Source of the DNA: an uncultured Candidatus Peribacteria bacterium
GTDB lineage: Bacteria; Patescibacteriota; Gracilibacteria; BD1-5; JAGOOR01
DNA length: 64,000 nucleotides
NCBI GenBank assembly: GCA_964413195.1
Contig: CAYPRD010000001.1
Location: 27,039 to 91,038 of the forward strand
Direction of reading: 5' to 3'
Shown here: in pieces, positions 749-58,423 of the stretch
Layout of the letters: each line of letters begins with the position of its first letter
Numbering within the stretch: the stretch's first letter is position 1
Translations under genes and position numbers: made by a program
Notes under the pieces: model-generated
Databases searched by the model: none
Told to the model about the DNA's origin: nothing
The model's input: only the letters and a program-made list of their open reading frames with translations

Positions 749-2512
749 ATGGCTATGAAATTAAAAATGAAAAAAAATTGCCCCATTTCCAAAAAAAGCT
801 TTCTTATAACAGAAAATGAAAAAAAATTTATCGACCAAATTTCTCCTCAATTTTGTGGAAAAAAGTACCTCTTCCCTTTTCCAGAAATTTGCCCAGAAGA
901 AAGAGTCCGTATGCGTGTGCTTCATCGTAACGAACAGTATCTTTACAAGAATTCCTCAGCATTCACAGGAAAGCCACTCATATCACTCTATCGTCCTCAT
1001 ACGTGAATCAAAGTAGTCACACGCGAAGAGTGGTTTTCAGACACATGGGATGCTATCGAGTACGGAAAAGAATACACTCATGAGCAAGCATTTTTTCAAC
1101 AGTTCTCCACACTGCAAAAATCCATACCACGGGCCGCAACAGTAACAGTCAACAATGAAAATTCCGACTACACAACCGGGACCTGATACTGCAAAAATTG
1201 TTACCTCATTAACTCCTCTGAATACTGTGAAGATTGTTATTATTCAAAATTATTACAAAAGTGTAGGAATTGTATTGATACAAGCTATGCATTTGACTCA
1301 GAATATCTCTATGAATGCTTTAACTGTGAGAAATGCTTTCATTGCGAATACTGTATCAATACAACAAATAGTTCTGATTGTTTTTATTGTAAAAATTGTA
1401 TCGGTTGTCAGAATTGTTTTGGGAGCATAAATTTGAAAAATAAATCCTATTACTTCATGAATGAAAAATGTTCTCCTGAAGAGTACAAAAAGAAAATCCA
1501 ATCACTCTGACTATCAGACATAAAACAACGATCCCTCATCTGGTCTCGTTTCCGGGATTTTTTCAGAACTCAACCACACAAATACGCCAATATAACAAAC
1601 TCTGAGAATTGTACTGGGGATTTTATCATCAACTCTCGTAACTGCGAAGAATGCTATGATATCTCAGATTCGGATGCGTGTCAGTATGTACAGGTATGAG
1701 TAAAATGCCGATCACTTATCGATTGCTCAAATATGTACGTTAATCCAGAATTTTGTTATCAAACACTCGGAACTATAGAAGTGCACAACTGCCATTTTTG
1801 CCTCTATGTTTTTCATAGTCGAGATCTCCTCTATTGTGAACAATGTTTTTCTTGTAAAAGTTGCTTTTGATGTGTCGGGTTAAGAAATAAAGAATATTGC
1901 ATCCTCAATAAACAATATAAAAAGGAGGAATACGAGAAAAAAGTCATTGAAATAATTACCGATATGCAAAAAACCCATGAATGGGGTGTGTTTTTCCCAG
2001 CATGGATGTCACCCTTTGCATACAACGAATCGCTTGCGCAGGATTATTTTCCTCTTACATCAGAAAAAAATGAAGAAATAGGTGGAATTCCTGGAATATA
2101 TACCCGTACAGAAAATGGTCAGACTTATTTTTGGTACGAGAAAGAAAATTCTGAATTTGAGTGAACATGGTATGAGCCACTCCCCATCGATCAATATGAC
2201 GAAAAAAAAGTTGGTTACGATAGGGCTGCAAAAAATATACAAAACTGCCTCAGTGGAGTACTACGGTGCCAAGAAAGTGGGAGGCCATTTAAGATTATTC
2301 GACAAGAACTTGCCTTCTATATACAGCACTCGCTCCCCCTCCCTATTTTATGTCCAGATGCTCGGCATGCTCATCGTATGAAACTGAGAAATCCCAGGAA
2401 ACTTTACCCGGGCACGTGTGCAAAAACGGGAGAAAATCTACTTACCTCATATCCTCCAGGAAGTCCGGAAGTACTCTATAGTGAAAGGGCATTTCAGGAT
2501 TTACTAGAATAA
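749..2512 (+). CDS. cysteine-rich repeat protein, paralog A (587 aa in table 25; function unknown)
   Basis: The frame of ORF 749-1006 reads through 6 in-frame TGA to TAA at 2510-2512 and absorbs ORF 1964-2164. About 39 Cys lie in CxxC strings (YCKNCYLINSSEYCEDC, ECFNCEKCFHCEYC, DCFYCKNCIGCQNCFG), in two internally duplicated halves. A motif F.I...EL.FY....P.P..CP..R...R..RNP occurs near both termini. Paralog of 30723-32426. Confidence 0.7.
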
Positions 2513-22913: not shown

Positions 22914-25900
22914 TTATCTTTTCTGAAGGCGGAAAATAGGCATAAAAATGAGAGAAATGGAAAGAATGATGACCACCCTCAGGAGGAATGAGCTCAGAGG
23001 GTCATTTTCTCTGTATCATCACGAGCCTCCGATATCCTGCGGAGTATCCTTTAAATCAAGCGTGTAGTGCGATCATGACGAGGAAGAAGAAACCTTGGGG
23101 AGAGCATGGTGCACAATGAAGAAACTTTGTTCAACTTTTTCTTGTGTAATACTATCTATAGCACGCAAAATGAGAGCATGTCTTCCATACGGAACAGAAA
23201 AAGCAGACGGATTTTTTGTTCGGAGAATATCTCCATTCGGTAACACCCATTCATATTCCACCGAGTCATCTCTATTTGATTCCGCTGTAAAATTCACCGT
23301 ACATGACCCTCGACTAAAACAATAAAAAACACCCTCTTTTTCAAAACGGTTTTTCGTTATTTTCCCCTGAAAACGTATAGAAACATTGAGTGGTATTAAA
23401 AAGTGTGACGATATACTCTCAACGTCTACTTTTTCCTCAATTATCACTCGGTTATCCAGATCTCCTAGTACGAGACGAAGAGTATATTCCCCTGTATTTT
23501 TCGGGAACCATGTGTATTCATATTCGCCATATACATCGGTGACAAGAACTCTGGAATGAAGCTCATTTCATCCATGTATCTCTACAAGCACAGGAAAATT
23601 TCCCCACGTTCTCCCAGAAATATGGAGTGCACCTTTCTTGGTTTTTGAGATACGAAAGGTCGTTATGTCTTCCGTTTGGTTTTTCCAATCAATTTCTTCT
23701 TTTTCACACACCTCTCATTCTTCCTGATGACAAAATTCGAGGAGTTCTTGTTGCAAATCCAGATATTCTTTTTCTTGTTGGTCAGATAAAAATTTGGTAT
23801 CCTCTCAATTTAACAGAAGCATTTCAGAAGCAATCTTTTTCTCACCCCAAACGCCAAAAAGATTTTTCTTTGCCTCTCATTCTTTTATATCAAACATTTC
23901 ATAGCGGAAAAATGGAAACCGTCTTTCCATACGAGCATACCCAAGATCAATTAGGTGAGCATTGAAAAGTACGCATTGATCTTCAGAAAATACACTCTCT
24001 GGACACGTCCAAACATACGCCAATCTCCGTCCATAATGATCAATTGGGGCAGAATCAAAGGTGAGCCATACTTCTTTTCCTTCCAGATATTTTTTCGTAA
24101 ACTCACTCACCTCTTTTCATAAAATCTCAAGTGGCTTGTAGGGATGAACAGTTTCTGGTGTATCGACTCCAAGAAGACGAATCTTTATTATATGGCCATC
24201 GATACTCCCCTCAATGGTATCCCCATCAATCACACGAGAAACAATCATTTTTTTCGTTTCTGGTTGGAGAATTTCTGGGCGAAGAATATAGGAAGAAGGA
24301 ACGGGAAAATCCCATGAAAAAGTATCAACAAGAACGTCTCCGCAGAGCAAAGTGAGTGATTCTCGACTATTGTGGAGACGGAGTCATGAGAGGGCCTGTC
24401 GTATACGAAAAGTTTGTTTGGAACGGAGAGTGCCAGAAAGAAAATATTCTGAGGTAGAATTCTGGATACGACACTCATCAAGTATGATATCTTCATGGGA
24501 AATATTTTGTATTTCAATCCATTCAACTGTATCGGCATGAGGTGGATTTGGTAAAATTGCAGAAAAAATAATTTTTCATTTTATATCTTCCCTGCACTCA
24601 AGGCAAGGATCAGTCTGATCAAAATTTTCTACGACCTCTACTTCGTACTGAGTTTCTGAAGTTATACTTCATGAAGAAACAGTAAGTCTGATACTATATT
24701 TTCCGGGAAGGAAATTATGGCTTGGTGGATTTTGTTTTTCCGAGATTGTCCCATCACCAAAATCCCAATGCCAATGAGTCACTCATGTCTGATCCAATGC
24801 AGTAAAATTAAGAGAGCAAAATTTTGCCTTTCAACGAGCACACACAATTCATGCTGGAAGAATTTTTTTATTCCGCGTAACTTTTGTTTGTAATACAATT
24901 TGTGCTAGTACTCAATCTTTCTGATCTCATTTTTTCCGAGTAAAAATAGGAAGAATCCTTTCGATACTTTTTTCTGTATCATGAGGATAAAAAATTCGGA
25001 CAGATACGTGGGTGTCTCAGAAAAATTGCACATATCCTGGATTACATTTTTTATCTGTTCACGGGGTCTGGAAAATTCCTGATCCAAAATTCCACTCACA
25101 CAAGGCTCACACTGGAGCTTCCACAAGAAAGTTTACAAAACAAGTATCAGTTTTACATGTACGAGACTCATCAAGGCCACTTTGCACTTGGATATCTATT
25201 CCTGATAAGTCGTTCCCTTGGGGTGATACACTCCCATTGCCTGGAGGAAATCACACAAAAGAAAGAGAACGAGTCACAAGAAGGGTGTTATTTCTTGTGT
25301 CGAGAATCTGGACAGTAATCATGTGATTCCCTTCAGGAATAGTAAAAGTATTTGGATTACAATCATTTTCTTCTCTTCAAAAATCTGATGTTATTCTACA
25401 GATTAGCTGTGCTGAAGGGTTACCATCAAGTTTCGGTATTACTAAAATATTCACACGACATTCGCCCTCTCCTGTATCGCATGTATACGTGTCCAAAGTG
25501 CTATTTTCTTTCCCAAGCAGATACGTTGGTTGCTGAAAGACAAGGTCGAGAGAAATCCTTTCTGGATGAATTGTAGTATCCAAAGGAAGATTCTTTATAT
25601 AAATGAGTTCCTCTCGCAGCCTCTCTCCTGTCACACGATTTTGTATTTCTATACGGAGGATGTATTCTCATACAGGCACAAGAGAAGACACAGGATTGCA
25701 CGGATCACTTCCTGGTACCAATTCAAAATCTGCTGTTATTTTACATGACAAAAGAGCGCTCTCCTGTCCATCCAGAAGAGGCGCGACGAGAAGGTTCACA
25801 CGACACTCATTTTCCTCTGGATCACAAAAATATTCATTTTTATACACGTCTTTTTCCAGAAGGTATGTCGGGGTTTGCCAATTTCGACTGAGCGTTACCC

Positions 25901-26321
25901 GGTCAGGACTGATCACAGATTCATCTTTCCGTACAATAAATATATGTCATTCAACCACGGTACTATCGTCAGAGATTCTTTTCACACGAAACCAAACATC
26001 TGAGGTTCCATAAGGAAATTCAATAGTATTTGGATTACATTTATTTTCTTCCCCTGTCACTCCAAATCAAAAATCTATAACACAAGCATAGTGAGTAGAA
26101 GGCTCTTCTGTGGGTATACTTACACTAAAATCAAAATTCACTTTACACGTATCTTTACTGCTATCACACGTATACTGAGTCAATCCAGGAGTATCTTTTT
26201 CGAGAAGATAAGTTGGCTGCTGAAAATGAAATTGAGGAGGATCTCCGAACACATAATAATACTCCACCAGTCATAGACCGATTATTCCTGCCAAAACAAA
26301 TCGACAGAACTTCGGATACAT
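22914..26321 (-). CDS. large membrane-anchored surface protein: 3 novel repeat modules + PKD + lamin-tail domain + staphylococcal-nuclease domain (1135 aa)
   Basis: ORFs 26067-26267, 25668-25916, 25377-25634, 24117-24350, 23877-24110 and 23073-23447 share one frame, and I read every codon between them without meeting TAA or TAG. Signal anchor MYPKFCRFVLAGIIGLGLV. PKD motif HWHWDFGDGT (about 24750-24780). LTD motif ILPNPPHADTVEWIEIQN (about 24312-24575). SNase motifs VIDGDTIEG, IRLLGVDTPE and DHYGRRLAYVW (about 23900-24245). C-terminal TM LLRVVIILSISLIFMPIF followed by RLQKR. TAA at 22914-22916. Confidence 0.75.
25260..26230 (-). repeat. three tandem ~115-aa protein modules inside the surface nuclease gene (periods 348 and 342 nt)
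   Basis: Each module starts Q(Q/T)PTYLLEKD (codons at 26225, 25877, 25535). It then has Y.CD....C(K/R)VN, a C.I..DF segment and a CNPNT(F/I) segment. The copies are diverged at DNA level. Confidence 0.7.
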
Positions 26322-26379
26322 AGCTCAAATATTATACAAAGAAAAATAAAATTTGTATGACCCTATATTTTTGTACAAT

Positions 26380-26706
26380 ATGAGCATGAAAAAATTCCTT
26401 CCCTACGCACCTCTTGCAGCTCTTTTGCTCGGCTTAGGCGGAATATACATCGCTCAACCAATACAGCATTCTTTACCTATTGATATAACACAATCTCAGT
26501 GAGCAGAATTGTCACTATGTACACGGCCAGCAGCATTTATAGAAGAAAGTTCCCTACCTGCTTGGTGCCAAGAAGGATACCAAAAGAATATCAAAAAAGA
26601 AAGGAATATATGGTCATGGGAGTGCACATCAGAAAAGGAAACCACAACCTGTAATTTCGTAGAAACAGGGAATTATCCACGCCGTTGAGGAGTATTTTTT
26701 CGATAA
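26380..26706 (+). CDS. small secreted Cys-containing protein, hypothetical (108 aa)
   Basis: MSMKKFLPYAPLAALLLGLGGIYIA signal peptide. Open through 2 TGA to TAA 26704-26706. Divergent from the nuclease gene across a 58-nt spacer. Confidence 0.45.
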
Positions 26707-30722: not shown

Positions 30723-32426
30723 TTAATAAATATGTTTTTTGAAACATTCTTCGCAAAGAATCTGAAGTCCAGAATCTGGGGGATAGCTCGTAGAAATTGA
30801 CTTCCGACATTCCCGGCAAGAGTCGTTATGAAGTTCACGGGGATTACGGAGCTTCATCAATATTCTATTTCTCTCCCGTGAGTGTAGTGTAGGAAGAGGT
30901 ATGCCATTTTCTCTATGAAAAGCGAGTTCTTGCCTGATAATCTGAAAAGGTTTACCACTCACAGAACAATAAAAGACCGTCCTGAGAGCTTGATCAATAT
31001 TTTTCTTGGCTTCAATTTCTCCAACAATTCTCTCATCATATTGAGATATATGAAGTGGAGGGGTTCAGGAATTATTATAACTTTGGACACCGGCTCACCA
31101 TCGTCCACCCAATTTTTCTACTTCTATTTGGGATAAAGGATACCAATCATAAGCGGCCGTATCTTCATAGGGATAGGGCGAAAGATGTAGTGGAAAGAAT
31201 TCTCACCACTCACCAGTACTCTTCATATGATCAATAATTTTTGAACGAAGTACTTCAAATTCTTGTTGGCTATAGGTTTTATTCAGGATAGAAAATTTTG
31301 CATGATTTAATCAGATACATCAAAATAAATCGGAGGAATTTCGACAACTATCACAATACGTGAGATTTTTTGAATCAAAAATATAGAAACTGTATGTTGT
31401 ATTAAAAGTATTTGTAATAACACATGTGTATGCACATAACTCAGCTGCTGTAAAGCCAAGAGAATAACACCACAGGCAATCTTTGACACCACCAAAGCTC
31501 ATAATATGACGAGAATTTTCTGAGCCCCAGCCATCAAAACAATCAATACATTGAGTACAATTTTGAAGATGATCTCCTGTGGAATTATCTACATGTGTAA
31601 ACTGACTTGCAGGACGAATGCTCTCGGCACGAATTTTATTAAAAACAGCTTTTGCTTGGTCCCAAATAGTCTGACTTGATTTGAGGAGTTGGAGGGTTTT
31701 TTCAAATTCTTCTTTGGTTGATTGCTTATTATATATGCAATATTGTTTCCCGACAAGACCAGAACAGGCAATGCAGTTCTGACAATTTCGGAGTTGATAT
31801 GAGAAATAACATTCAGCACAATCTCGACATTCCTGACATCCAAAACAGAATTGGCAACGAATCACATCAAGACAATTATGAATATTTTCACATGCAGTGC
31901 TCATGGCAGAATCAAATATATTCTTTCATTCTACAGTCCAATAGGAATAATACACATCTTCAGATTTCGTAAATAGAGAACAAAGATAGCAATTTTTCGA
32001 ATAACGAGCATGACTATTGTACTCGCAATTTTCGGAACTAAAAATAGTTGTCCCTACTCGCGGTACAACATCTTGAAGAGATTTATACTGTTCAAAATAG
32101 GTTTTAGAAAAATCAAAATTTCTTCCAAATTCAAAGGCATTCCAGTCATCTGACCACCAAAGTTCATGATTATATACTGGAAAAATAGTATCTGGAGAAT
32201 ACTGTGAAAGTATATTTTGTCATGTTTTGCTACATTTTCGGGAAAATAGATTCCATTCATTACGAAATGCAAAAAGATTTCTCCAAATTTCCCGTGGACA
32301 TAAAGTAGGTGCTGGGATACCAAACTTCTCATAAAAAATCATATCACGGTCAGTCACGACAAATTCCTCCCCAGTTATGCGGCATTTTTTTGTTTGTATG
32401 ATATTTTCGTTTGGTGGTAGGTACAT
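30723..32426 (-). CDS. cysteine-rich repeat protein, paralog B (567 aa)
   Basis: ORFs 32220-32450 (ATG 32426), 31320-31904 and 30723-30962 are in the same frame and joined by TGA. CQFCFGCQECRDCAECYF strings. The C-terminal zinc ribbon is intact (SCRECRKSISTSYPPDSGLQILCEECF). Collinear similarity to 749-2512 over the whole length. Confidence 0.7.
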
Positions 32427-34483: not shown

Positions 34484-34912
34484 CTACTCACATTCGATAC
34501 CCATCGAACGAGCTGAACCACGGACAATCATCATAGCCGCTTCTAAATCATTTGCGTTCAGATCAGGCATTTTTCTCTTGGCAATATCAGTAATCTGTGC
34601 TTTTGTTAGTTTACCAACTTTTACTTTATGAGGTGTAGCAGATCCACTTTCGAGGCCAATCGCTTTTTTGATAAGATTGGTCATCGGTGGTTGCTTCATC
34701 TCAAATACAAAACTTCGATCTTCATAGATAGTGATAATCGTTGGGAGTACCCAGCCAATCTGATCACGAGTTTTATCGTTAAACTGCTTACAAAAATCAG
34801 CAATCTGGATACCCGTCGGACCAAGAGCTGTACCAATTGGAGGTGCAGGATTAGCTTGTCCAGCGGCTATCTGAAGCTTAACAATTTTTTTGATTTCCTT
34901 CTTTTTAGCCAT
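34484..34912 (-). CDS. rplK: 50S ribosomal protein L11
   Basis: Intact [37 protein letters not shown] is the canonical L11 N-domain. Confidence 0.95.
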
Positions 34913-41881: not shown

Positions 41882-43519
41882 TTACATCATGCCCATTCAT
41901 CCCATTCCCCCACCCATTGGTGGCATTGGTTTTTCTTTCTCTGGAAGCTCATAGATAACAGCTTCTGTAGTGAGAAACATACCCGCAATGGACGTAGCAT
42001 TTTCGAGTGCTGTGCGTGGAACTTTTGTTGGATCAATGATCCCTTCATCCACGAGGTCAACAAAAATATTTTTCGCAGCATCATATCCATAGCTAAAATC
42101 TTTGTGCTCAAGGATAGTATTCACAATAACTGCTCATTCTTGACCAGCATTTTCAGCAATTTTCTTGGTAGGATAACGTAGTGCTCGCTTCACAATCTCA
42201 ACACCGATTTGTTGATCAGCATTTGGTGCTTTGAAAGTATCGAGTACTTTTGCAGCCTTGAGAAGAGCAACCCCACCACCTGGAACAATACCTTCTTCCA
42301 CTGCAGCACGTGTAGAGTTAAGAGCGTCTTCGAGGCGAAGTTTGAGTTCTTTCATTTCCACTTCTGTTGCCGCGCCAACTTTGATAACAGCGACACCTCC
42401 TATGAGACGTGCCAATCGCTCAGACATTTTTTCTTTATCATAATCAGAGTCACTCTTCTCGATCATGCGACGAATTTCAGAAGCACGAGATTCGATATCT
42501 TTTTTACTTGCCTGAGTGGCAACGATAGTCGTTGTTTCCTTCGTAGAGACAACAGAGTCAATCTTTCCAAGTACTTCGAGACCAACAGTGTCTAGTTTGA
42601 GACCAATTTCTTCGGATACTACTGCTGCACCCGTAAGAAGAGCGATATCAGCAAGGTTTTCTTTGCGACGATCACCGAATCCAGGAGCCTTGATAGCCAG
42701 GATAGAAAACACTCCTTTGAGTTTATTGAGAACAACAGTTGTTAGTGCTTCTCCATCAAGATCTTCACAAATGATAACCAATTCTCTTTTTCCAGATTGC
42801 AGGAGCGATTCAAGGATCTTTAAGATATCTTTAGTAGAAGATATTTTTTTGTCAGTAATAAGGACAGGGATATCCGAATAACGAGCCTCCATTTTTTCTG
42901 CGTCATTTACCATGTATGGAGCAATATAGCCATTCTTGAATTGCATACCTTCAGTAACCGTTACAGTCATACCGAAAGTCTTTCCTTCTTCGACGGTGAT
43001 AACACCATCTCGCTTCACCTTGTCCATAGCATCAGCAATGATTTTACCAGCCTCTTCATTCTGAGCGGAAATAGTAGCAATAGCTGCAATTTCTTCAGAA
43101 GATTTCACAGGACGAGAGTGCTTACCAAGTTCTTTGGCAACTTCAGCAGCAGCTAATTTCATACCATTCTTAAGCTCAATAGCGTTGATACCCGAACGAA
43201 TTTCTCGGAGACCCTCTGAAATCATTGCATAGGTAAGAACCGTTGCCGTTGTCGTACCATCACCAGCGGCATCATTTGTTTTACTCGCAACATCTTTGAT
43301 AAGTTCCGCACCCATGTTTTCAATTGGATCCTCAAGATCAAACTCTTTTGCTATAGTCACACCATCGTTAGTAACCTGTGGGGCACCATAACTTTTTGGG
43401 AAAACAACATTACGACCTTTTGGTCCAAGTGTTGCCGATACTGCCTCGTGAAGTTTTTTCACTCACTCGAGCATCTTGAGACGTCCAGCATCTCAGAAAA
43501 GTACTTGTTTTTTAGCCAT
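41882..43519 (-). CDS. groL: chaperonin GroEL
   Basis: ORFs 42134-43462 and 41897-42124 plus the N-terminus. [23 protein letters not shown], with TGA at 43493-43495 and 43463-43465. C-terminal tail [16 protein letters not shown] at 41882-41884. Confidence 0.95.
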
Positions 43520-45357: not shown

Positions 45358-46353
45358 ATGCGCTACGTCACACCAGATGCCGACGATAGAGGTCAGCGAC
45401 TCGACCGTTACACAAGAAAAATATTTCCCGGAGCAAAACTGGGAGAAATATACGAGGCTATTCGGACAAAAAAAATCACCATAGGAGGAAAAAAACTGCC
45501 AGAAAGTACGCGTCTCAGAGAAGGCGATATACTAGAAATCTGACTCTCAGACGCATTGTGGGAAATTTGGACACAAGAAGAAAAAACATCCAAAAACATC
45601 CAAAAAAAACTTCATCCCGAGCGCATACTCTACCAGGATACTCATCTTTTTATCTATGATAAACCCCCTGGACTTATCGTACATAGCCCGGATCATAAAA
45701 CAGAGGAAGTGTCTCTTATAGACCAGATAGAAGATTATCTCACTTCACGAGGATGGAAACCTACTGGTACGTTTGATCGCCCCGCTCTCGCACACAGAAT
45801 TGATCGAGATACATCGGGGATCATCATCACTTGTCTGGACCGAGTATCCTATGAACATCTCGCAGAACAATTTCGCACAAGAAAAGTGGAGAAAACCTAT
45901 CTTGCTCTTGCCACAGGGGTACCAACACCTCCTGAATGAGTCATCCATGCTCCCCTCAAACGGATCGATGAACATGAAGATACGAGGGCAAAGGTTATCG
46001 TAGATATGAGCGGAGAAAAGGCAGAAACACGGTACAAAGTCTTGATTCATTCACCTTCAAAACAATGGAGCCTCGTGGAACTCTCTCCAAAAACAGGACG
46101 AACACACCAGATTCGTGTCCATATGTCACATATTGGACACCCCCTTGTGGGAGACCGCCGCTATGGATGAAAAACTATTCTCCATTTTCCCGAACTTATC
46201 CATACATGCCCAGAATTATGAGATCATCATGGACACATCCTTCACGCAGCATCTATACGTTTTAAAAATATAGACAACACAGTCATCACAATTGAATCAG
46301 TTCCCCCTTGGCTTAAGGCTGTGCAGCCTCAAAAAGTTTCTGCGCCAGAGTAA
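45358..46353 (+). CDS. RluA-family 23S rRNA pseudouridine synthase (RluD/RluC-like, with S4 domain)
   Basis: ORFs 45358-45543 and 45556-45939 plus the downstream same frame. [13 protein letters not shown] and [27 protein letters not shown] at 46351-46353. Confidence 0.85.
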
Positions 46354-48697
46354 GTTTATTATTTCGAACGTTAACATCATTCAGGATAGCATCAGGGAAG
46401 AGTTTTTTCAAACCATCCTCTGCCTGAACGCCATTCGTTGGATTATTTCCTCAAAATGCCTGGCGAATATCATTCTTCTCATCGATAGTAAGTTTGGTCT
46501 TATCGATTGTAGGATTAGTAGGATCAATAACTTGTCGGTTACTTCCGAAAGCAATCTGATTTCACTGGACGCTAGCAGCACTAAATCGAAGTGTTGCAGG
46601 CGTCGATGAAGATGAAGATTGTCATCCCTCTTTGATCACCTTGAACAATTCCTGGGATTTAGTATCCGTAAATACCGAATTAAGATCTGAATCAATAATT
46701 TGAACTAATTCACCCTGAGATTGAGAACCTTGTATTCTACGAATTATGTCCGTCTTCTTGGCTGCATCTATAGTTGATGCTTTAACCATTTCTTCTAGAG
46801 CTATTCTTTGTGCTTCAAGTGCTTTTGCTGTCACACGTGCACCTTGAGGAATATTTCGTAGAGCATTAGTAAACCCATCTACGTTCGTCGCAGCATTTCT
46901 CGCTGCAGCATCCAAATTAAGAAGTCCTGGCGTTTTGAGGATATCTTGCAAATTCTTTCGTTCATTGAGCTCATGTTCATCGACGGATCGACGGAGAGAC
47001 TCAGCAACGGCAGTCATACCAGAAGGAGTGAGAGCCTTAAATGCAGGATGCGGAACCGGGATATGACTTGGAAGGTGTTGGACAAAGTGTCCAACGCTTT
47101 CTCCAAATTTCGCAAAAGGTTCAAATGCCACACGAGTAATCTCATCATGTTGAACCGCGGCCTTAACTCACAACCAAATAATGACGAGTGAGATAAGGGT
47201 GAGAATAATATGCGCAAAAATATCTTCCACACTCGAAATCAATCCTGAAGCGACTCATCCTACTCATGCTGCACCTGTACCAAGTGCACTAGATTTTTCA
47301 GCGCCTCCAATAAATCATGAAAGCATATCACCAAATTCAAATGTTATTGCATACTCTCCCGCTCCTCACCCATTCTCAGCATTCGTCGTATCCGTGCCAA
47401 TAATAAGTCGAGAAGTGTATCCTTGTTCTGATTGCCCATCCGCTGTGATACAGTATTTCACAAGGAAATCACCCGTCGTACAATGCACGCCAGCTGTCGG
47501 CGTTCCATGAATGGCTCATTTAAAGGTATTACTGATAACTCATACAAAAAGCAGTCCAAATGAAAGTACAGCAGATACTAATACCGGTACCATAGCAAGC
47601 TTGAAGAATGGAACAAAACCAAATTCCCCCAACGATGCTCCACCACTTCATCATCACTCAGAATTGAGCGTCTTCCCGGCTCATTCATCACCGACGGCAT
47701 ACGCTAGCCCGAAAAGAGGGGAAAACATCACATAAATCCAGAGTTTAAATGCCCGCACAAGCAGTACCCAACACAGTGCAACTAAGAGAATAGCAAAAAA
47801 CATCGTGGTCACGAGAGCAACACCAAATTTTCGTAATACGGCCATCAAATTCTTCACACAAGTTTTAGAGTCTTGGTAGGTAGTTCATTTATTTTCCGAG
47901 GTGGCTGCACTACTGCAAACATTACTGAGCTCTATAAGTGAGGTTTTCTGGATTTTAAAGATGTCATATGCATAAATCATAATGATGAAAAAGGGACCGG
48001 CCTGATTGTAGCTCACAAATTCAGCAGCAGAGATACATTTTCCTTGTCCATCTCGTTGATTTCCGCTCTCATCACAACCGACCTGTGCAGGATCAGAGCC
48101 GGGACTGGTGCTCCCCATAGCAAAACTGAGTTTTGTCGGGATCACTTTTTCATGAAACATCCCTTTATCTTCTCCTGGTGCAGTCGGGTCCTGCATACGA
48201 GCAATAGCACCCATAGGAACTGAAAGTACTGCTGCTACAGCCTGATTGGCAAAGGAAAGTGTCCAGCTCACAATAAGCCATGTAAATGGCACCATAAGAA
48301 TTCCAATCAGAAATCTTCCTATTTTCTGTTTAAATGCAAATTTATGCTCTCCTCCGCCAAAAATATTCATGACTGCCATGTAGAGCAGAAGAAGCGCAAA
48401 GATTATGTAGACGATATTTGATACCAACACCCAGACTTCCAAGAAATACGCTCGGAGTCCAAAGAAATCTCCCATAGTCCAATCAGGAGAAAGGAGCCAA
48501 CCAGCAATGATAATTGCTGGAGTAAGTAAGATCACGAGTATCCCAAAAACAATATCCAATATCTGGATGATACCTCTCACCACATCACTATCTCCGCTAC
48601 TGTCTGCTGCAAAAGCACACCCAAAGAGAAAGGTAGCAAAAAAGATACTTCTTTTTAGAGTGATAAGAGATCGGAAAGACGTGAGGAAAGAAGTCAT
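46313..48697 (-). CDS. large polytopic membrane protein with hydrophilic C-terminal extension, tentatively VirB6/TrbL-like (794 aa)
   Basis: ORFs 47885-48718 (ATG 48697) and 46622-47131 share one frame, and all codons between them were read with only TGA interruptions. Signal-like N-terminus, at least 7 hydrophobic helices, Gly-rich loops, and a soluble tail of about 270 aa. TAA at 46313-46315. Confidence 0.6.
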
Positions 48698-48698
48698 A

Positions 48699-49517
48699 TT
48701 ATTGATTGTCGGTAGCAAAAAGTTTGAGTTCTTTCAAGGCAGCAATATTAACCCCTTCTGGTAATCGAACCGTAATACCCTGAGCCAGAGCAGCGGCATT
48801 GGCTCGTAGAACAGTAATACGCTGCTCCGAAGCCTGTATGAGGGCTGCATATTCACGAGCAAGACGACGAGAAAATACAGTATTATTTCGATGTTCTTGT
48901 TCCTCTATGCGAAGCTCTTCGAGCTGAACAAGACCCTTTATGATAGCGCTGCTATCTCGATTGTTGTAGGCATTCTCGAGAGAGTTTTGCGTATTTTTGA
49001 TCTCTTCCTGAATGCTTGGGAGTATGCCTGCATGGAGGTCAGCCTGCTGTGTCAACGTATTCATTGCCTCCTTTGCATCATTTTTTGCACGATCGAGTTG
49101 ATCAATATAATTTTCTAATCCGCTCAGCCTATTTGGCTGAAGACGCAAGTATTGAACAATATCAATTTGCAAAATTTCTGTTAATTCTCCTATCCGTTTG
49201 AAATGTTCTTGGAAAAATATCTCACCAGTAATCGGGTTCTGGACAATCGCTTCTTGGACACGGGCAGTATCTTCAGAAAGTCTTACCGGAACAGCATCGG
49301 CCTGAGGGATATCAGTCCCAATATTATTACCGAGAGCAACTCCTACAAGTGCGAGCGGCTCTTCTGGAGCACTGTTGAGTGTGAAAGAATTCGGACGGAG
49401 AGAAAGAGAAAACCCATACGCCGTCAGGGTGATGATGAGGAGCGCTAAGCACACAAATCCAAACCATTGAACTGCATCAGAATAACGTTTGAATCGAAAG
49501 GAAGAATAAAGTTTCAT
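48699..49517 (-). CDS. N-terminally anchored coiled-coil protein, tentatively VirB5/TrbJ-like (272 aa)
   Basis: ORF 48699-49523 contains no TGA. TM FGFVCLALLIITLTAYGF, then a long Q/E/A/L-rich helical region. The stop lies 1 nt from the ATG of the downstream polytopic membrane gene. Confidence 0.55.
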   Translation of the reverse strand: MKLYSSFRFKRYSDAVQWFGFVCLALLIITLTAYGFSLSLRPNSFTLNSAPEEPLALVGVALGNNIGTDIPQADAVPVRLSEDTARVQEAIVQNPITGEIFFQEHFKRIGELTEILQIDIVQYLRLQPNRLSGLENYIDQLDRAKNDAKEAMNTLTQQADLHAGILPSIQEEIKNTQNSLENAYNNRDSSAIIKGLVQLEELRIEEQEHRNNTVFSRRLAREYAALIQASEQRITVLRANAAALAQGITVRLPEGVNIAALKELKLFATDNQ

Positions 49518-53537: not shown

Positions 53538-56510
53538 ATGCAAAAAAACAAGTATTTTTATCAGACGATTCTCGGATGTATGATCTTCTGTTTTGGATCA
53601 GCATTTGCGTATACAAGTGCCGATTGTGAAAATGCATCTCGTCTGGCAAGCAATGGTATCATCACCTATCAATCATCTTGCCCAGGCTATGCACTCGATC
53701 GCAACATTACTCGAGCCGAAGTAGCTGCTGTAGGTCTCAAAATCGCAGAAACATGTGGAGCACTATATGAAACATGGAATACCTGTGAAGGTATTTATTG
53801 TGATGTTACCTCTACCGATCCAAACACATGGGCATGTCGAGCAGCAGAAACACTCGCACGAAATGGTATCATCTCCCTCAACACTCAATCAGATGGATTT
53901 AATCATTTTTACCCAACAAGAAATATTACACGAGCAGAGGCTTTAGCAATTATTCTCAAGAGTGGTAAACTAGATTTTCAGAACTCCACCTACAATGATT
54001 GGCGTTTCAATGGGACAGGGGCAAACAGTTGGCAAAAACCTCTCATGCAATATGCATTTAATAGTGGCTATATAACTTCTATAAATGGTTTCTGACCAAA
54101 TCTTCTTGCTCGCCGCCATGAAGTATTTGGATACGCAGAACAAGTGCTCAGAACATGTGGTGGAGGTGGTGGAAATACTTCATCATGTGGTATCGGTCAA
54201 TATTGGTCTGGAAATACATGTTACAGCTGTTCTGGAGCACCAGCAAACGCATATTATACCGGTAGAAATTCATGTGAATGGACCTGTAACAGTGGATACT
54301 ACAAAAGTGGAAGTAGCTGTGTGAGCAATAATAACAATTACAATCCTTACGGGACATGTCCTGCATGACAATACTGGGCTGGAACCTGTATTTCATGTTT
54401 ATCTGCTCCAGCAAATGCATACTACACAACCTACAACTCATGTGCTTGGACGTGTAATAACGGATACTACAGAAGCGGAGACACGTGCGTGAGCAGTGGT
54501 GGCTGATATGGATCATGTAGTGTAGGGCAATATTGGAATGGATATAGCTGTAGTTTTTGTGGGAACCTCCCTACAAATGCGTATTATAATAGCCAAAACA
54601 GTTGTGAATGGACCTGTAACAATGGATATTATAAGAGTGGTAATAGTTGTATAAGCACGTATAACACCGCTTGTGGCGTCGGACAATATTCATCTGGAAA
54701 CACCTGTTTCTCTTGTAGTTCTGCTCCAGCAAATGCATACTATACGACACAAAATTCATGTGAATGGACTTGTAATAGTGGATATTATAAACTCGGAAGC
54801 AGCTGTGTCAGTTTCAACAATCCATCAACATGTGGAGTCGGACAATACTCGTCTGGGAATAGTTGTTATTCTTGTAACACACGTCCAACCAATGCCTACT
54901 ACACACGAGAAAATTCATGTGAATGGACTTGTAACAGTGGGTACTACCGAGATGGAAATTTTTGTGTCCAAAATTATCAAAACTGTGGTATTGGACAATA
55001 CCTCACTGGAAACATGTGTCTTGGTTGTACCAACAAGCCATCATACGCATACTATACAACCGTTGGATCATGTGAATGGACCTGTGAAAGTGGGTATTAT
55101 AGAAATGGAAACACCTGTACACCTTCGTTTAATCAAAACTGTAGTATCGGACAATATCTGGTAGGAAACAGTTGTGTTTCATGTGGCAATGCTCCTTGGA
55201 ACTCAACCTATACAACCGTTGGATCATGTGAATGGACCTGTAACAGTGGATACTACAGAAATGGGGATAGTTGTATACAAAATGTCGTCAATTGTGGTAT
55301 CGGGCAATACCAACTCGGTAATACGTGTCATAGCTGTACAGGCTTACCTGCAAATGCCTATTACACGACCACCGGCAGCTGTGCATGGACATGTAGTTCA
55401 AACTACTACGCATCAGGAAATCAGTGTTTCCCATACGTAACAAATTGTTGAGTAGGGCAATATCTTTCTGGCAATGCCTGTGTATCATGTACTGGGCTGC
55501 CAACAAACGCATACTATACCACACAGAATTCATGTAGTTGGTCTTGTAGTAATGGCTATACCCAGAGCGGATGATCATGTGTTCCAAATACGTATAATTT
55601 CTACGCATGGTACACGAGTAGTTATGGGACATGTTCAGCAAGCTGTGGTGGAGGAAACCAATACCGCACTGTAGAATGTCGAAATAATCTTGGAATAACT
55701 GTAGCTGATGCGTTTTGTTCTGCAACAGCAAAACCAGTTACAACACAATCATGTAATACGCAGGCATGTACTAATTATGCGTGGTATACAGGAAATTATG
55801 TGACATGCTCAGCAAGCTGTGGTGGAGGAAACCAATATCGAACCGTGGAATGCCGCGATGGAAATGGAATGACGGTTTCTGATAGTTATTGTTCTGCAAC
55901 AGCAAAACCAGTTACAACACAATCGTGTAATACGCAGGCATGTCAAACAGTTACTTATGGATGGTTTGCTGGAAGTTATGGTTCTTGTTCTGCTGTATGT
56001 GGTGGAGGAAATCAATACCGCCCCGTAGAGTGCCGAACAAACACAGGAAACACCGTTGCTGATAGTTATTGTGCACATATTACTCGTCCAACCAATATCC
56101 AATCATGTAATACGCAGGCATGTACTAATTATGCGTGGTATACAGGAAGCTATGGGACATGTTCAGCAAGCTGTGGTGGAGGAAATCAATACCGCACCGT
56201 AGAATGTCGAAATAATCTTGGAATAACTGTAGCTGATGCATATTGTACTGGGACAGCAAAACCAATCAATGCACAATCATGTAATAGTCACGCCTGTGCT
56301 GTGGCGACACAATGTAGTGGATTTCGATTTTGTACAACAGACAACTTTGGTGAGTGGTGCGAGACACCAGAATGTCCCGTAGGATGCACCGCCGTTCTTT
56401 CTGATGCAACAGATAACTACGCAGATATTCGATCCACAAATAATGGACGAAGTATGAAAGGGAAAAATTGTGATGCCGGAACCGAAACCCTCAAAGTATT
56501 TTGTCGATAA
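53538..56510 (+). CDS. secreted SLH-domain protein with 9 Cys-rich (ephrin-receptor/furin-like) repeats and 4 ADAMTS-type thrombospondin type-1 repeats (990 aa)
   Basis: ORFs 53466-54095, 54144-54368, 55014-55451 and 55800-56510 are all in one frame and joined by TGA. Signal peptide ILGCMIFCFGSAFA. SLH-like segments NITRAEVAAVGLKIA and WACRAAETLARNGII...NITRAEALAIILK. Repeats CG.GQY..GN.C..C...P.NAYYT...SCEWTCNSGYY..G..C. TSRs W(Y/F)..SYG.CSA.CGGGNQYR.VECR...G..V.D..C....KP...QSCN.QAC. Confidence 0.8.
54186..55580 (+). repeat. nine tandem ~50-aa cysteine-rich repeats (coding)
   Basis: GQY-containing units: CGIGQYWSGNTC, CPA-G-QYWAGTC, CSVGQYWNGYSC, CGVGQYSSGNTC, CGVGQYSSGNSC, CGIGQYLTGNMC, CSIGQYLVGNSC, CGIGQYQLGNTC, C-G-VGQYLSGNAC. 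Six Cys per unit. Confidence 0.8.
55602..56296 (+). repeat. four tandem thrombospondin type-1-like repeats (coding), with near-identical DNA between units 1 and 4
   Basis: Segments 55623-55711 and 56151-56239 (89 nt each) differ at 2 positions. A 49-nt linker (CAATCATGTAATACGCAGGCATGTACTAATTATGCGTGGTATACAGGAA) occurs identically at about 55747 and 56100. Confidence 0.8.
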
Positions 56511-56517
56511 GAAATAA

Positions 56518-56541
56518 AAAGCCTTCACAAGAGGCTTTTTT
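56518..56541 (+). terminator. rho-independent terminator
   Basis: AAAGCCT-TCACAAG-AGGCTTT followed by TTTC, 8 nt after the TAA of the SLH/TSR gene. Confidence 0.6.
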
Positions 56542-56703: not shown

Positions 56704-57444
56704 ATGTCTCTCATTAAAGACATGCTGCATAATGCAGTCCACATCGGTAGTGACACCCGCCATTGGTCTCCTGCCATGAAACCCTATATTCACGGGGTTC
56801 AAAATGGTATCCATGTTTTTGATCTTACAAAAACAGAATCACATCTCATCGAGATGCAAAAAGCCCTCGAGGAATTTTGCAAATCTGGGAAAGATTTACT
56901 TATCGTTGGGACAAAAGTTCAAACACAAAAAATCGCACAAGATTTAGCAGAAAAAACAGGACACTCCTGCATCACTTCGGTATGGGTTCCAGGGCTTCTC
57001 ACAAACTACAATACCATCAAACGCCAAGTACGTGAGTACAACAAAATCATGAAGGATATCGAAACAGGTGAAATCAACCGTCTTTCCAAGAAAGAAAAAG
57101 CAATGGTTATGACCCGTCTCAGCCGTCTCAAAAAGCGATATGAAGGTATCAAAGAAATGAAAAAGGCTCCGGATGGAATCTTTGTCATTGACGGACATTA
57201 TGAACTGCAGGCAATCAAAGAAGCAAATGTTTTGGGCATTACCGTATTTGCCATTCTTGGTACTACTGGGCAACCAAAACTCTGTGATTACTTTGTACCA
57301 GGAAACGTCAACAATCTCAAGTCACTTTCCTTTGTCACAGGAGAACTCGCTGCCTCTATGAAACGTAGTGCTCGACAAACTGTTGCGGAAAAGATCGCAA
57401 AGGGTCCAGCACAAAAGACAGAAACCCCAGAAGAAACAGCATAA
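56704..57444 (+). CDS. rpsB: 30S ribosomal protein S2
   Basis: Intact ORF. MLHNAVHIGSDTRHWSPAMKPYIHGVQNGIHVFDL is the canonical S2 N-terminus. Confidence 0.95.
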   Translation: MSLIKDMLHNAVHIGSDTRHWSPAMKPYIHGVQNGIHVFDLTKTESHLIEMQKALEEFCKSGKDLLIVGTKVQTQKIAQDLAEKTGHSCITSVWVPGLLTNYNTIKRQVREYNKIMKDIETGEINRLSKKEKAMVMTRLSRLKKRYEGIKEMKKAPDGIFVIDGHYELQAIKEANVLGITVFAILGTTGQPKLCDYFVPGNVNNLKSLSFVTGELAASMKRSARQTVAEKIAKGPAQKTETPEETA

Positions 57445-58348: not shown

Positions 58349-58423
58349 AGGGTGGTAGTACAATGGTTAGTATAGGGATCTCCAAAGTCCTTGATCTCAG
58401 TTCGATTCTGAGCCGCCCTGCCA
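58349..58423 (+). tRNA. tRNA-Trp (anticodon CCA)
   Basis: AGGGTGGTAGTACAATGGTTAGTATAGGGATCTCCAAAGTCCTTGATCTCAGTTCGATTCTGAGCCGCCCTGCCA. Cloverleaf folded by hand, anticodon loop CTCCAAA, discriminator G, encoded CCA. The body is like E. coli tRNA-Trp. Confidence 0.9.

What the first reader, a model, noticed from the sequence alone, without database searches (positions are those of the whole stretch)
53538..56510. Eukaryote-like adhesin: SLH anchor + 9 ephrin-receptor/furin-like Cys repeats + 4 ADAMTS-type thrombospondin repeats
The 990-aa table-25 ORF has a signal peptide and three SLH-like segments (F.P...ITRAE pattern). It then has nine ~50-aa repeats CG.GQY..GN.C..C...P.NAYYT...SCEWTCNSGYY..G..C. 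These resemble GCC2_GCC3/ephrin-receptor-like or furin-like repeats known mainly from eukaryotic surface proteins. Last come four units (Y/F)AWYT.SYG.CSA.CGGGNQYR.VECR...G..V.D..C....KP...QSCN.QAC. These match the ADAMTS-type thrombospondin type-1 repeat pattern W..G.W..CS.TCG.G.Q.R.V.C...G.......C....KP....C....C. TSRs are metazoan and apicomplexan adhesion modules and are rare in bacteria. An S-layer-anchored protein displaying them in a likely epibiotic or predatory CPR cell suggests host-attachment mimicry or horizontal acquisition.
Basis: partly seen in the sequence, partly recalled or inferred. Interest (0 to 1): 0.7.

Follow-up and report, generated by a model that had tools for sequence, protein, structure and literature searches.

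The report
Wall-anchored bacterial protein carrying thrombospondin repeats
A tiny, probably host-dependent bacterium that reads TGA as glycine encodes a cell-wall-anchored, disulfide-rich surface fibre ending in four thrombospondin type-1 repeats, an adhesion module otherwise described almost only in animals and protists. Relatives carry the same gene in the same chromosomal slot, so it looks inherited rather than newly borrowed.

Summary
With TGA read as Gly, window 53538-56510(+) is one 990-aa ORF with five in-frame TGA codons, four of them at Gly-conserved repeat columns. It has a Sec signal peptide, an SLH-type wall anchor, nine 44-45-aa six-Cys repeats, four 54-aa six-Cys thrombospondin type-1 repeats (TSRs) and a 70-aa orphan Cys-rich tail.

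- **TSRs:** certain. Pfam TSP1_ADAMTS scores 187.7 bits; the AF2 model has pLDDT 89-98; Foldseek matches THSD7A and thrombospondin-1 TSRs at E=1e-7 to 1e-4.
- **SLH anchor:** supported for one segment by Pfam, and for the triple only weakly.
- **Nine repeats:** they match no Pfam family (not Ephrin_rec_like, furin-like or TNFR_c6). The model resembles Eph-receptor and TNFR cysteine-rich domains only weakly.

The gene sits in a conserved slot (AspRS, MgtC/DUF4010, this gene, RpsB, Tsf) in about 15 Gracilibacteria/Peribacteria loci. The passenger part varies between them, with 0, 1, 3+, 4 or 6 TSRs. Codon usage is native, and the four units here arose by local tandem duplication.

Similar TSRs also occur in a lineage whose close relatives are annotated Omnitrophota. 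The most likely role is a rod-like adhesin for host or prey contact. I found no paper describing it.

The parts
53538..56510 (+). Whole CDS: 990 aa with TGA=Gly (genetic code 25), ATG start, TAA stop
   Evidence: 94 Cys (9.5%)
53538..53609 (+). Sec-type signal peptide, aa 1-24 (MQKNK / hydrophobic core / AFA|Y)
   Evidence: Read from the sequence. A24-Y25 is invariant in eight homologs
53622..53753 (+). SLH-like segment 1 (aa 29-72, ends ...DRNITRAEVAAV...)
   Evidence: ITRAE motif. Not hit by the Pfam SLH model on its own. The family profile aligns positions 30-208 to the SpaA SLH trimer 6cwr at E=0.14 only
53793..53963 (+). SLH segment 2 (aa 86-142), the Pfam-supported one
   Evidence: PF00395 at aa 95-135; 24.7 bits on the whole protein and 31.1 on the segment, cut-off 20.8. 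The family profile hits B. anthracis Sap SLH 3pyw at E=1.5e-3
53991..54155 (+). SLH-like segment 3 (aa 152-206, YNDWRF...WQKPLMQYA...ARRHEVF)
   Evidence: Aligned to the second SLH of Sap in the profile-versus-PDB alignment. Strongly conserved in the family. No Pfam hit on its own
54186..55580 (+). Nine six-Cys repeats of 44-45 aa (aa 217-261, 274-317, 327-371, 379-423, 432-476, 483-527, 535-579, 586-630, 637-681); consensus CG.GQY.SGN.C.SC...P.NAYYT...SC.WTCNSGYY.SG..C
   Evidence: The AF2 model of two units has pLDDT 75 and is all beta-hairpins. Best Foldseek matches are EphA4/EphA2 CRD, then 4-1BB and TNFR1. No Pfam family
55602..55769 (+). TSR 1 (aa 689-744)
   Evidence: Pfam TSP1_ADAMTS; six-Cys pattern
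55776..55943 (+). TSR 2 (aa 747-802)
   Evidence: 81% nt identity to TSR 1
55956..56123 (+). TSR 3 (aa 807-862)
   Evidence: AF2 pLDDT 89-98; Foldseek matches solved TSRs
56130..56297 (+). TSR 4 (aa 865-920)
   Evidence: 86% nt identity to TSR 1
56298..56507 (+). C-terminal 70-aa Cys-rich tail (7 Cys), unassigned
   Evidence: No Pfam hit. AF2 pLDDT <50. No similarity to the C-terminus of L015
54093..54095 (+). First of five in-frame TGA (Gly) codons; the others are at 54366, 54504, 55449 and 55572
56516..56540 (.). Palindromic hairpin flanked by A5/T5, 6 nt after the stop codon; terminator-like
   Evidence: the scan reported it on the - strand; the sequence is symmetric

Best explanation
The gene encodes a secreted surface protein of a code-25 (Gracilibacteria-type) bacterium. 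An N-terminal SLH-type module holds it on the cell wall. It carries a long, disulfide-stapled passenger: nine TNFR/Eph-CRD-like beta-hairpin repeats that form a stiff stalk, then four TSRs and a small Cys-rich tip held away from the cell.

Its most likely job is contact and adhesion to a partner surface, such as a host or prey cell, or matrix polymers. The TSRs and the tip would be the binding end.

It is the local version of a fast-evolving, positionally conserved surface-protein locus. Its passenger modules are gained, lost and tandemly amplified between lineages.

- **Shown:** the reading frame and code, the domain identities, the TSR fold, the conserved position, the variation in modules, and the native composition.
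- **Inferred:** cleavage of the signal peptide, wall anchoring through SLH, disulfide formation, the rod shape and orientation, and the adhesive function and its ligand.
For: **Domains.** TSP1_ADAMTS scores 187.7 bits in four stretches. The TSR model has pLDDT 89-98, and Foldseek gives E=1.4e-7 to THSD7A and about 1e-4 to thrombospondin-1, properdin and semaphorin-5A TSRs. SLH is above the Pfam cut-off, and the family profile hits the Sap SLH structure.

**Stalk.** The repeats are modelled as consecutive beta-hairpins. The best structural neighbours are extracellular Cys-rich stalk domains of Eph receptors and TNFRs.

**General anchor with adhesion-type passengers.** An exhaustive search with aa 1-185 found 507 representatives, 135 of them at E<=1e-10. 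Sampled members carry Big_9/cadherin-like, VWA, Calx-beta or subtilase passengers.

**Conserved slot, variable passenger.** AspRS, MgtC/DUF4010, this gene, RpsB and Tsf are syntenic in about 15 loci. Neighbours are 62-89% identical, while the anchor is only 44-57% identical. Cys-repeat counts range from 1 to 10 and TSR counts from 0 to 6.

**Native composition.** GC is 0.427, GC3 0.226, and the codon-usage log-likelihood z is +1.0 for the TSR module.

**Possible high expression.** TGA makes up 5 of 109 Gly codons against a 20.9% background (P=1.5e-6). This resembles GroEL, GroES, RpsB, Tsf and the 142-aa ORF at 34484-34912.
Against: - No binding partner, expression or localisation data exist.
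- The TSRs are close to neutral (3 K+R versus 2-3 D+E per unit). Each has only one Trp and one Arg in the layered core, so the classical glycosaminoglycan-binding face is not evident.
- Only one of the three SLH segments is significant in Pfam.
- The partner wall polymer and its pyruvyl transferase were not looked for.
- A protein with 92 extracytoplasmic Cys needs an oxidative folding system, which I did not identify.
- The tip domain is an orphan with a low-confidence model.
Confidence: 0.55

Rival explanations
1. Recent horizontal acquisition of animal ADAMTS-type TSRs, used to mimic or bind the extracellular matrix of an animal or protist host.
For: The repeats match the ADAMTS-type model far better than other TSR models: 187.7 bits versus 49.1 for TSP_1 and 16.2 for TSP1_spondin. 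After the Gracilibacteria units (56-57 bits), the best outside units to an HMM of the window's TSRs are a mollusc THSD4 unit (52.7 bits), P0051 (49.6 bits; a metagenome protein of unknown taxon) and a sponge ADAMTS9 unit (46.7 bits). Three of the four units keep the C-x-x-S/T-C-G O-fucosylation motif. The TSR+tail region has 0 of 31 Gly codons as TGA.
Against: Codon usage and GC are native. TSR-bearing positional orthologs exist in several MAGs; one isolate name (GFS_12135) may indicate a glacier-fed stream, but that is my reading of the name. The window's four units form one clade (87%), while deeper nodes are unresolved (12-15%). Identity to eukaryotic units (median 38%) equals identity to the Omnitrophota-like units (37%). 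No other ADAMTS domains are present. The low TGA count applies to the whole gene and to likely highly expressed neighbours.
Confidence: 0.12
2. It is a structural envelope component rather than an adhesin. It would be an S-layer-associated coat or spacer that builds or stiffens the outer surface.
For: It has an SLH anchor and low TGA usage like likely highly expressed genes. It occupies one conserved slot next to rpsB-tsf in every relative. Its long repetitive passenger is rich in polar residues (N+S+T+G+Y is 52%).
Against: Its 9.5% Cys content is not what I expect of lattice-forming S-layer proteins (from my own knowledge). The same anchor is also carried by 1100-1460-aa low-Cys proteins that are better lattice candidates. 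The passenger varies strongly in module type and number between close relatives, which fits an interaction surface better than a lattice.
Confidence: 0.25
3. Artefact: a chimeric assembly, or eukaryotic contamination joined to a bacterial gene.
For: The TSR part alone has its best named matches in animal proteins, and it contains no TGA codon.
Against: It is a single ORF with uniform composition. The same fusion occurs in independent assemblies: L001/L009, L012, L015 and P0107. A terminator-like hairpin follows the stop codon. The flanking housekeeping genes are syntenic.
Confidence: 0.01

Closest known systems
ADAMTS-type thrombospondin type-1 repeats (Pfam PF19030; ADAMTS, ADAMTS-like, papilin, THSD4, THSD7A)
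   Same: Same repeat family by profile. Six-Cys pattern W....[YW]..CS..CG.G.Q.R.V.C...G..V.D..C....KP....C....C. Same elongated fold in the model. Tandem arrangement.
   Different: The host is a bacterium. There is no metalloprotease, disintegrin, spacer or PLAC domain. The second core Trp is replaced by Tyr and only one core Arg remains. The units are near neutral. The eukaryotic glycosylations are not expected here.
SLH-anchored surface proteins of monoderm bacteria (for example B. anthracis Sap, P. alvei SpaA)
   Same: An N-terminal signal peptide is followed by an SLH module with TRAE motifs. There is a Pfam SLH hit and a profile match to the Sap SLH structure 3pyw. A variable passenger follows.
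   Different: Only the middle SLH segment reaches significance. The module carries six family-conserved Cys. The organism is a code-25 candidate-phyla bacterium whose wall polymer is unknown.
Cysteine-rich stalk domains: Eph-receptor CRD / Ephrin_rec_like, TNFR_c6, furin-like repeats
   Same: Short disulfide-stapled beta-hairpin units with C..G.Y....C..C and C.W.C..GYY..G..C motifs. EphA4/EphA2 CRD and 4-1BB/TNFR1 are the best structural neighbours. Metagenome proteins that share the repeat (P0075, P0085, P0088; unknown taxon, eukaryote-like by my reading) also carry bona fide TNFR_c6 domains.
   Different: No Pfam model matches. The Foldseek matches are not significant (E>=1e-2, TM about 0.28). 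The 45-aa six-Cys unit is a distinct, unnamed family.
TSR proteins of an Omnitrophota-like lineage (P0056, P0060; loci L002-L004)
   Same: Bacterial proteins with four to seven ADAMTS-type TSRs (171.7 and 74.8 bits), found in small candidate-phylum bacteria. The neighbours of P0056 are at least 90% identical to proteins annotated 'Candidatus Omnitrophota bacterium'.
   Different: They have a different anchor, a pilin/Flp-like N-terminus (KAQ.V.EYLLIV), and a different context downstream of MlaE-MlaF-MlaD. There is no SLH and there are no 45-aa repeats. Their units are about 37% identical to the window's.

Membership tests
TSP1_ADAMTS / thrombospondin type-1 repeat | Match to the family profile above the curated cut-off | tested here: met
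   PF19030 scores 150.7 bits (whole protein) and 187.7 bits (segment) in four stretches, cut-off 23.8. PF00090 is also above its cut-off
TSP1_ADAMTS / thrombospondin type-1 repeat | Six cysteines per unit at the canonical spacing (CS..CG.G ... C ... C ... C....C) | tested here: met
   All four units. Cys columns are invariant in an alignment with animal and bacterial units
TSP1_ADAMTS / thrombospondin type-1 repeat | Elongated three-stranded TSR fold | tested here: met
   AF2 pLDDT 89-98 over both modelled units. Foldseek top hits are all TSRs: 8oxr at E=1.4e-7, and 7yyk, 3r6b and 1lsl at about 1e-4
TSP1_ADAMTS / thrombospondin type-1 repeat | Stacked Trp/Arg layered core (W..W(..W) with R.R(.R)) | tested here: inconclusive
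   Each unit has one Trp plus one Tyr at the second aromatic position, and one Arg (QYRTVEC). This is reduced relative to the canonical core
TSP1_ADAMTS / thrombospondin type-1 repeat | Three specific disulfide bonds | not testable with these tools
Only the Cys count, spacing and fold match are available
SLH domain | Match to the family profile above the curated cut-off | tested here: met
   PF00395 at aa 95-135; 24.7 and 31.1 bits, cut-off 20.8
SLH domain | Three tandem SLH segments forming the wall-binding module | tested here: inconclusive
   Segments 1 and 3 do not hit Pfam. The family profile aligns segments 2-3 to Sap 3pyw (E=1.5e-3) and positions 30-208 to SpaA 6cwr (E=0.14). tblastn matches residues 56-205 to loci at about 30% identity in other metagenome assemblies, many of them human gut; I did not annotate the proteins there
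SLH domain | TRAE-type motif in each segment | tested here: met
   ITRAE in segments 1 and 2; a degenerate ARRHE in segment 3
SLH domain | Pyruvylated wall polymer and CsaB-type pyruvyl transferase in the genome | not tested
   Only a 64-kb window is available and it was not scanned for this
Ephrin_rec_like (GCC2_GCC3) / Furin-like / TNFR_c6 | Match to any of these family profiles | tested here: not met
   No hit at E<=10 on the whole protein, the repeat region or two units. Only EGF_MSP1_1 appeared, at 26.4 bits against a cut-off of 27
Ephrin_rec_like (GCC2_GCC3) / Furin-like / TNFR_c6 | Structural similarity to solved members | tested here: inconclusive
   The model has pLDDT 75. Best hits are EphA4 CRD 4m4p (E=1e-2, prob 0.98, TM 0.28), then EphA2, 4-1BB and TNFR1. 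None reaches E<=1e-3
ADAMTS / ADAMTS-like / papilin proteins | Reprolysin protease, disintegrin, ADAM-TS cysteine-rich/spacer or PLAC domains alongside the TSRs | tested here: not met
   None of these Pfam families hits the protein, although they are present in the animal hits
Genetic code 25 (TGA = Gly) | In-frame TGA at positions where homologs or repeat copies have Gly | tested here: met
   Five in-frame TGA codons. Four are at Gly-conserved repeat columns; the fifth is at an anchor column with G in 5 of 7 homologs. 20.9% of Gly codons in the window are TGA. Homolog P0014 shows W at the same columns, which I read as TGA translated as Trp

The most novel reading that the evidence does not exclude
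Thrombospondin type-1 repeats are a genuine, vertically maintained bacterial adhesion module. Two unrelated groups of ultra-small, host-dependent or predatory bacteria use them: Gracilibacteria on an SLH anchor, and an Omnitrophota-like lineage on a pilin-like anchor. In both they would serve to grip partner cells. The ADAMTS-type TSR of animals would then share a common origin with this prokaryotic pool, through an ancient inter-domain transfer whose direction is open.
Probability: 0.2. Interest if true: 0.8.

Novelty: new variant of a known kind. Interest (0 to 1): 0.55.

Why it matters
How Gracilibacteria and their relatives attach to other cells is largely unknown. The papers I read invoke pili and secretion systems, not this protein family.

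This locus gives a concrete candidate. It is a positionally conserved but rapidly remodelled SLH-anchored surface protein. In one sublineage its distal end is built from TSRs.

It also adds well-supported bacterial examples to a fold usually treated as an animal and protist adhesion module. That bears on where that module came from.

It is directly testable. The TSR+tip fragment has no TGA codon (nt 55575-56507), so it can be expressed as it stands.

Tried and rejected
- **NCBIfam scan:** no hit.
- **GTDB genome scan with the whole protein:** found nothing, because the exact 8-mer patterns were too specific. The anchor alignment worked.
- **Metagenome scan:** added only four family loci; the rest were more distant matches at about 30% identity.
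- **Exact look-ups:** the 990-aa protein is not in the collection, and no encoding contig is on record for RpsB. The source genome is therefore unnamed.
- **Exhaustive search with the full table-25 protein:** I used the TGA-free anchor instead.
- **Profile of the Cys repeats against PDB sequences:** only insignificant sushi and Eph hits, E>=0.13.
- **C-terminal tail:** no Pfam hit, a low-confidence model, and no similarity to the tail of L015.
- **TSR-unit tree:** it cannot resolve donor or direction (12-15% support).
- **Literature:** searches found bacterial thrombospondin type-3 repeats only, nothing on bacterial type-1 repeats or on this family.
- **Rejected readings:** lipoprotein (the ILGC at aa 11-14 is not conserved in homologs) and ADAMTS-like protein (no ancillary domains).
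Full report
**1. The observation**

Translating window 53538-56510(+) gives 991 codons. The five internal stops are all TGA and the last codon is TAA. Four TGA codons fall where the other repeat copies have glycine: CPA*QYW, SSGG*YG, C*VGQY and SG*SC. The fifth (aa 186) lies in the anchor and reads INGF*PN; 5 of 7 homologs have G at that column.

Window-wide, ORFs become much longer when TGA is not a stop; the longest is 1162 versus 508 aa. TGA supplies 20.9% of all Gly codons. One public homolog (P0014) has Trp at these Gly columns, which I read as TGA mistranslated. The table-25 reading is therefore sound, and the product is 990 aa with 94 Cys.

**2. Anatomy**

| Region (aa) | Feature | Evidence |
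|---|---|---|
| 1-24 | Sec signal peptide (MQKNK, hydrophobic core, AFA\|Y) | The A-Y junction is invariant in eight homologs |
| 29-206 | Anchor: three SLH-like segments with ITRAE, ITRAE and ARRHE motifs | See below |
| 217-681 | Nine units of 44-45 aa with six Cys each | |
| 689-920 | Four TSRs of 54 aa with six Cys each | |
| 921-990 | Orphan tail with seven Cys | |

- **Anchor.** Pfam finds one SLH stretch (aa 95-135; 24.7 and 31.1 bits, cut-off 20.8). A profile of the family anchor hits the SLH structure of B. anthracis Sap (3pyw, E=1.5e-3) across segments 2-3. It hits P. alvei SpaA only weakly over positions 30-208 (E=0.14).
- **Nine repeats.** No Pfam family matches them. Only EGF_MSP1_1 appears, just under its cut-off. 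An AF2 model of two units, built on an alignment of 45 unit pairs, has pLDDT 75 and consists of beta-hairpins. Its best PDB neighbours are the cysteine-rich domains of EphA4 and EphA2 (E=1e-2, TM 0.28), then 4-1BB, TNFR1 and MSP1-19. None is significant.
- **TSRs.** Pfam TSP1_ADAMTS scores 187.7 bits in four stretches, against 49.1 for TSP_1 and 16.2 for TSP1_spondin. The AF2 model of TSR3-4 has pLDDT 89-98. Foldseek returns only TSR structures at the top: THSD7A at 1.4e-7, and thrombospondin-1, properdin and semaphorin-5A at 1e-4 to 1e-3. At DNA level the array is a 174-nt repeat x3.8.
- **Tail.** It has no Pfam hit, a model below pLDDT 50, and no similarity to the tail of a relative.
- **After the gene.** A palindromic hairpin with a T-run follows the stop codon.

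**3. Family and genomic position**

- **Homologs.** The k-mer search returned about 17 proteins with the same anchor and Cys repeats. Where they are named, the source is Gracilibacteria or Peribacteria.
- **More loci.** A scan of species-representative genomes with the anchor alignment gave 11 more loci in such MAGs. A metagenome scan gave four more.
- **Synteny.** Where the fetched locus or contig extends far enough, the order is AspRS, MgtC/DUF4010 (minus strand), this gene, RpsB, Tsf. No RpsB or Tsf match was found in the roughly 3 kb downstream of the L012 and L015 genes.
- **Rates.** Neighbours are 62-89% identical to the window's, while the anchor is only 44-57% identical.
- **Passenger variation.** It carries 1-10 Cys repeats, a different four-Cys 'GQCG' repeat, or three acidic repeats of about 125 aa.
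- **TSR counts.** There are none in most loci, one in L001/L009 (five Cys, ending at TAA), at least three in L012, and six in L015 (one canonical plus degenerate four-Cys units). P0107 has one degenerate unit.
- **Reading.** The TSRs are an inherited, amplifiable module of a subclade, not a peculiarity of this genome.

**4. The anchor is a general device**

An exhaustive HMMER search with aa 1-185 found 507 cluster representatives at E<=1e-3 and 135 at E<=1e-10. Sampled members carry Big_9/cadherin-like repeats, VWA, Calx-beta, a subtilase, or long unannotated passengers of 1100-1460 aa. The window's protein is thus one of a suite of wall-anchored surface proteins, and many of their passengers are adhesion-type domains.

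**5. Origin of the TSRs**

- **Composition.** GC is 0.427, GC3 0.226, and synonymous-codon log-likelihood z is +1.0. These place the TSR module inside the genome's own range.
- **Tree.** In a neighbour-joining tree of 65 units, the four window units form one clade (87% bootstrap). The canonical first units of L012 and L015 pair at 98%. All deeper nodes are unresolved at 12-15%.
- **Identity.** Median identity of the window units is 49% to other Gracilibacteria units, 37% to the Omnitrophota-like units and 38% to eukaryotic units.
- **Other bacteria.** ADAMTS-type TSRs also occur in P0056 and P0060, encoded downstream of MlaE-MlaF-MlaD in ordinary bacterial contigs. The neighbours of P0056 are at least 90% identical to proteins annotated 'Candidatus Omnitrophota bacterium'. 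These proteins have a pilin/Flp-like N-terminus instead of SLH.
- **Conclusion.** A recent transfer from an animal is not supported. An ancient inter-domain transfer, in either direction, remains open.

**6. Expression hint**

TGA is used for only 5 of 109 Gly codons in this gene (P=1.5e-6 against the background). GroEL (4/48), GroES (0/7), RpsB (0/17), Tsf (1/18) and the 142-aa ORF at 34484-34912 (0/10; it looks like ribosomal protein L11 by eye, not scanned) also avoid it.

This fits a highly expressed surface protein. It is an inference, and some orthologs with zero TGA may belong to standard-code genomes.

**7. Mechanism proposed**

The protein would be exported by Sec and the signal peptide cleaved after AFA. 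The SLH module would hold it non-covalently on a wall polymer, and the cysteines would be oxidised outside the cell.

From published sizes of TNFR-type repeats (about 3 nm) and TSRs (about 5 nm), which I take from my own knowledge, the nine repeats and four TSRs would form a fibre of roughly 40-50 nm. The TSRs and the orphan tip would sit at the far end, where they could touch a host or prey cell or matrix polymers.

The architecture is shown; everything functional is inferred. Two points count against a classical TSR ligand. The units are near neutral, and each has a reduced Trp/Arg core.

**8. Comparison with what is known, and novelty**

- It works like an SLH-anchored modular surface protein of monoderm bacteria, and it carries true TSRs.
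- It is not an ADAMTS-like protein, because the ancillary domains are absent.
- Its nine repeats are not members of Ephrin_rec_like, furin-like or TNFR_c6.
- Papers found describe bacterial thrombospondin type-3 repeats, and pili or secretion systems in Gracilibacteria. None describes bacterial type-1 repeats or this family.
- That search covers open-access text only, and domain databases may already list bacterial TSR hits.
- I rate it a new variant of a known kind, of moderate to good interest.

Noticed in passing
window 22914-26387 (-): A 1157-aa table-25 protein with staphylococcal-nuclease, PKD and lamin-tail-domain Pfam hits and hydrophobic ends. It is probably a surface or secreted nuclease.
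   Followed up: partly
window 749-2512 (+) and 30723-32426 (-): Two paralog-like proteins of 587 and 567 aa that are rich in CxxC motifs (about 6% Cys). The first has no Pfam hit; the second was not scanned.
   Followed up: partly
whole window, e.g. 41882-43519 (GroEL-like by eye), 56704-57444 (rpsB): TGA supplies 20.9% of Gly codons overall. It is strongly avoided in GroEL, GroES, RpsB, Tsf, the 142-aa ORF at 34484-34912 (L11-like by eye) and the surface-protein gene. The reassigned codon looks disfavoured in likely highly expressed genes.
   Followed up: partly
window 46313-48850 (-): An 845-aa multi-pass membrane protein with no Pfam hit at E<=1e-5.
   Followed up: no
L002 8001-10172, L003 2668-4839, L004 6001-9438: Bacterial proteins with four to seven ADAMTS-type TSRs and a pilin/Flp-like N-terminus (KAQ.V.EYLLIV). 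They always lie just downstream of MlaE-MlaF-MlaD. The neighbours of P0056 are near-identical to proteins annotated Candidatus Omnitrophota.
   Followed up: partly
L012 5926-9204 and L015 5956-9603: These positional orthologs carry three acidic repeats of about 125 aa (DNF.ITTDD.SPD...) between the anchor and the Cys repeats. They also carry shortened four-Cys TSR-like units (Y.W..G.WG.C.NN.Q.R.V.C...) after one canonical TSR.
   Followed up: partly
proteins P0130-P0209: The same SLH-type anchor heads many proteins of 1100-1460 aa. Their public translations (for example P0154 and P0204) appear to have Trp where I would expect Gly, probably TGA read as Trp, so database sequences of code-25 organisms may be partly mistranslated. 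I judged this by eye and did not test it against alignments.
   Followed up: no
P0013, P0005, P0007 and others: Many family members alternate the 45-aa repeat with another four-Cys repeat (GQCG..(I/V)NSC.SGTFYD..DYGNYAYWNC.G.NG..VSC). The window's protein lacks it.
   Followed up: no
window 58349-58423 (+): The window holds only tRNA-Trp(CCA), tRNA-Glu(CTC) and tRNA-Lys(CTT). No tRNA-Gly(UCA) that would decode TGA is present in these 64 kb.
   Followed up: no
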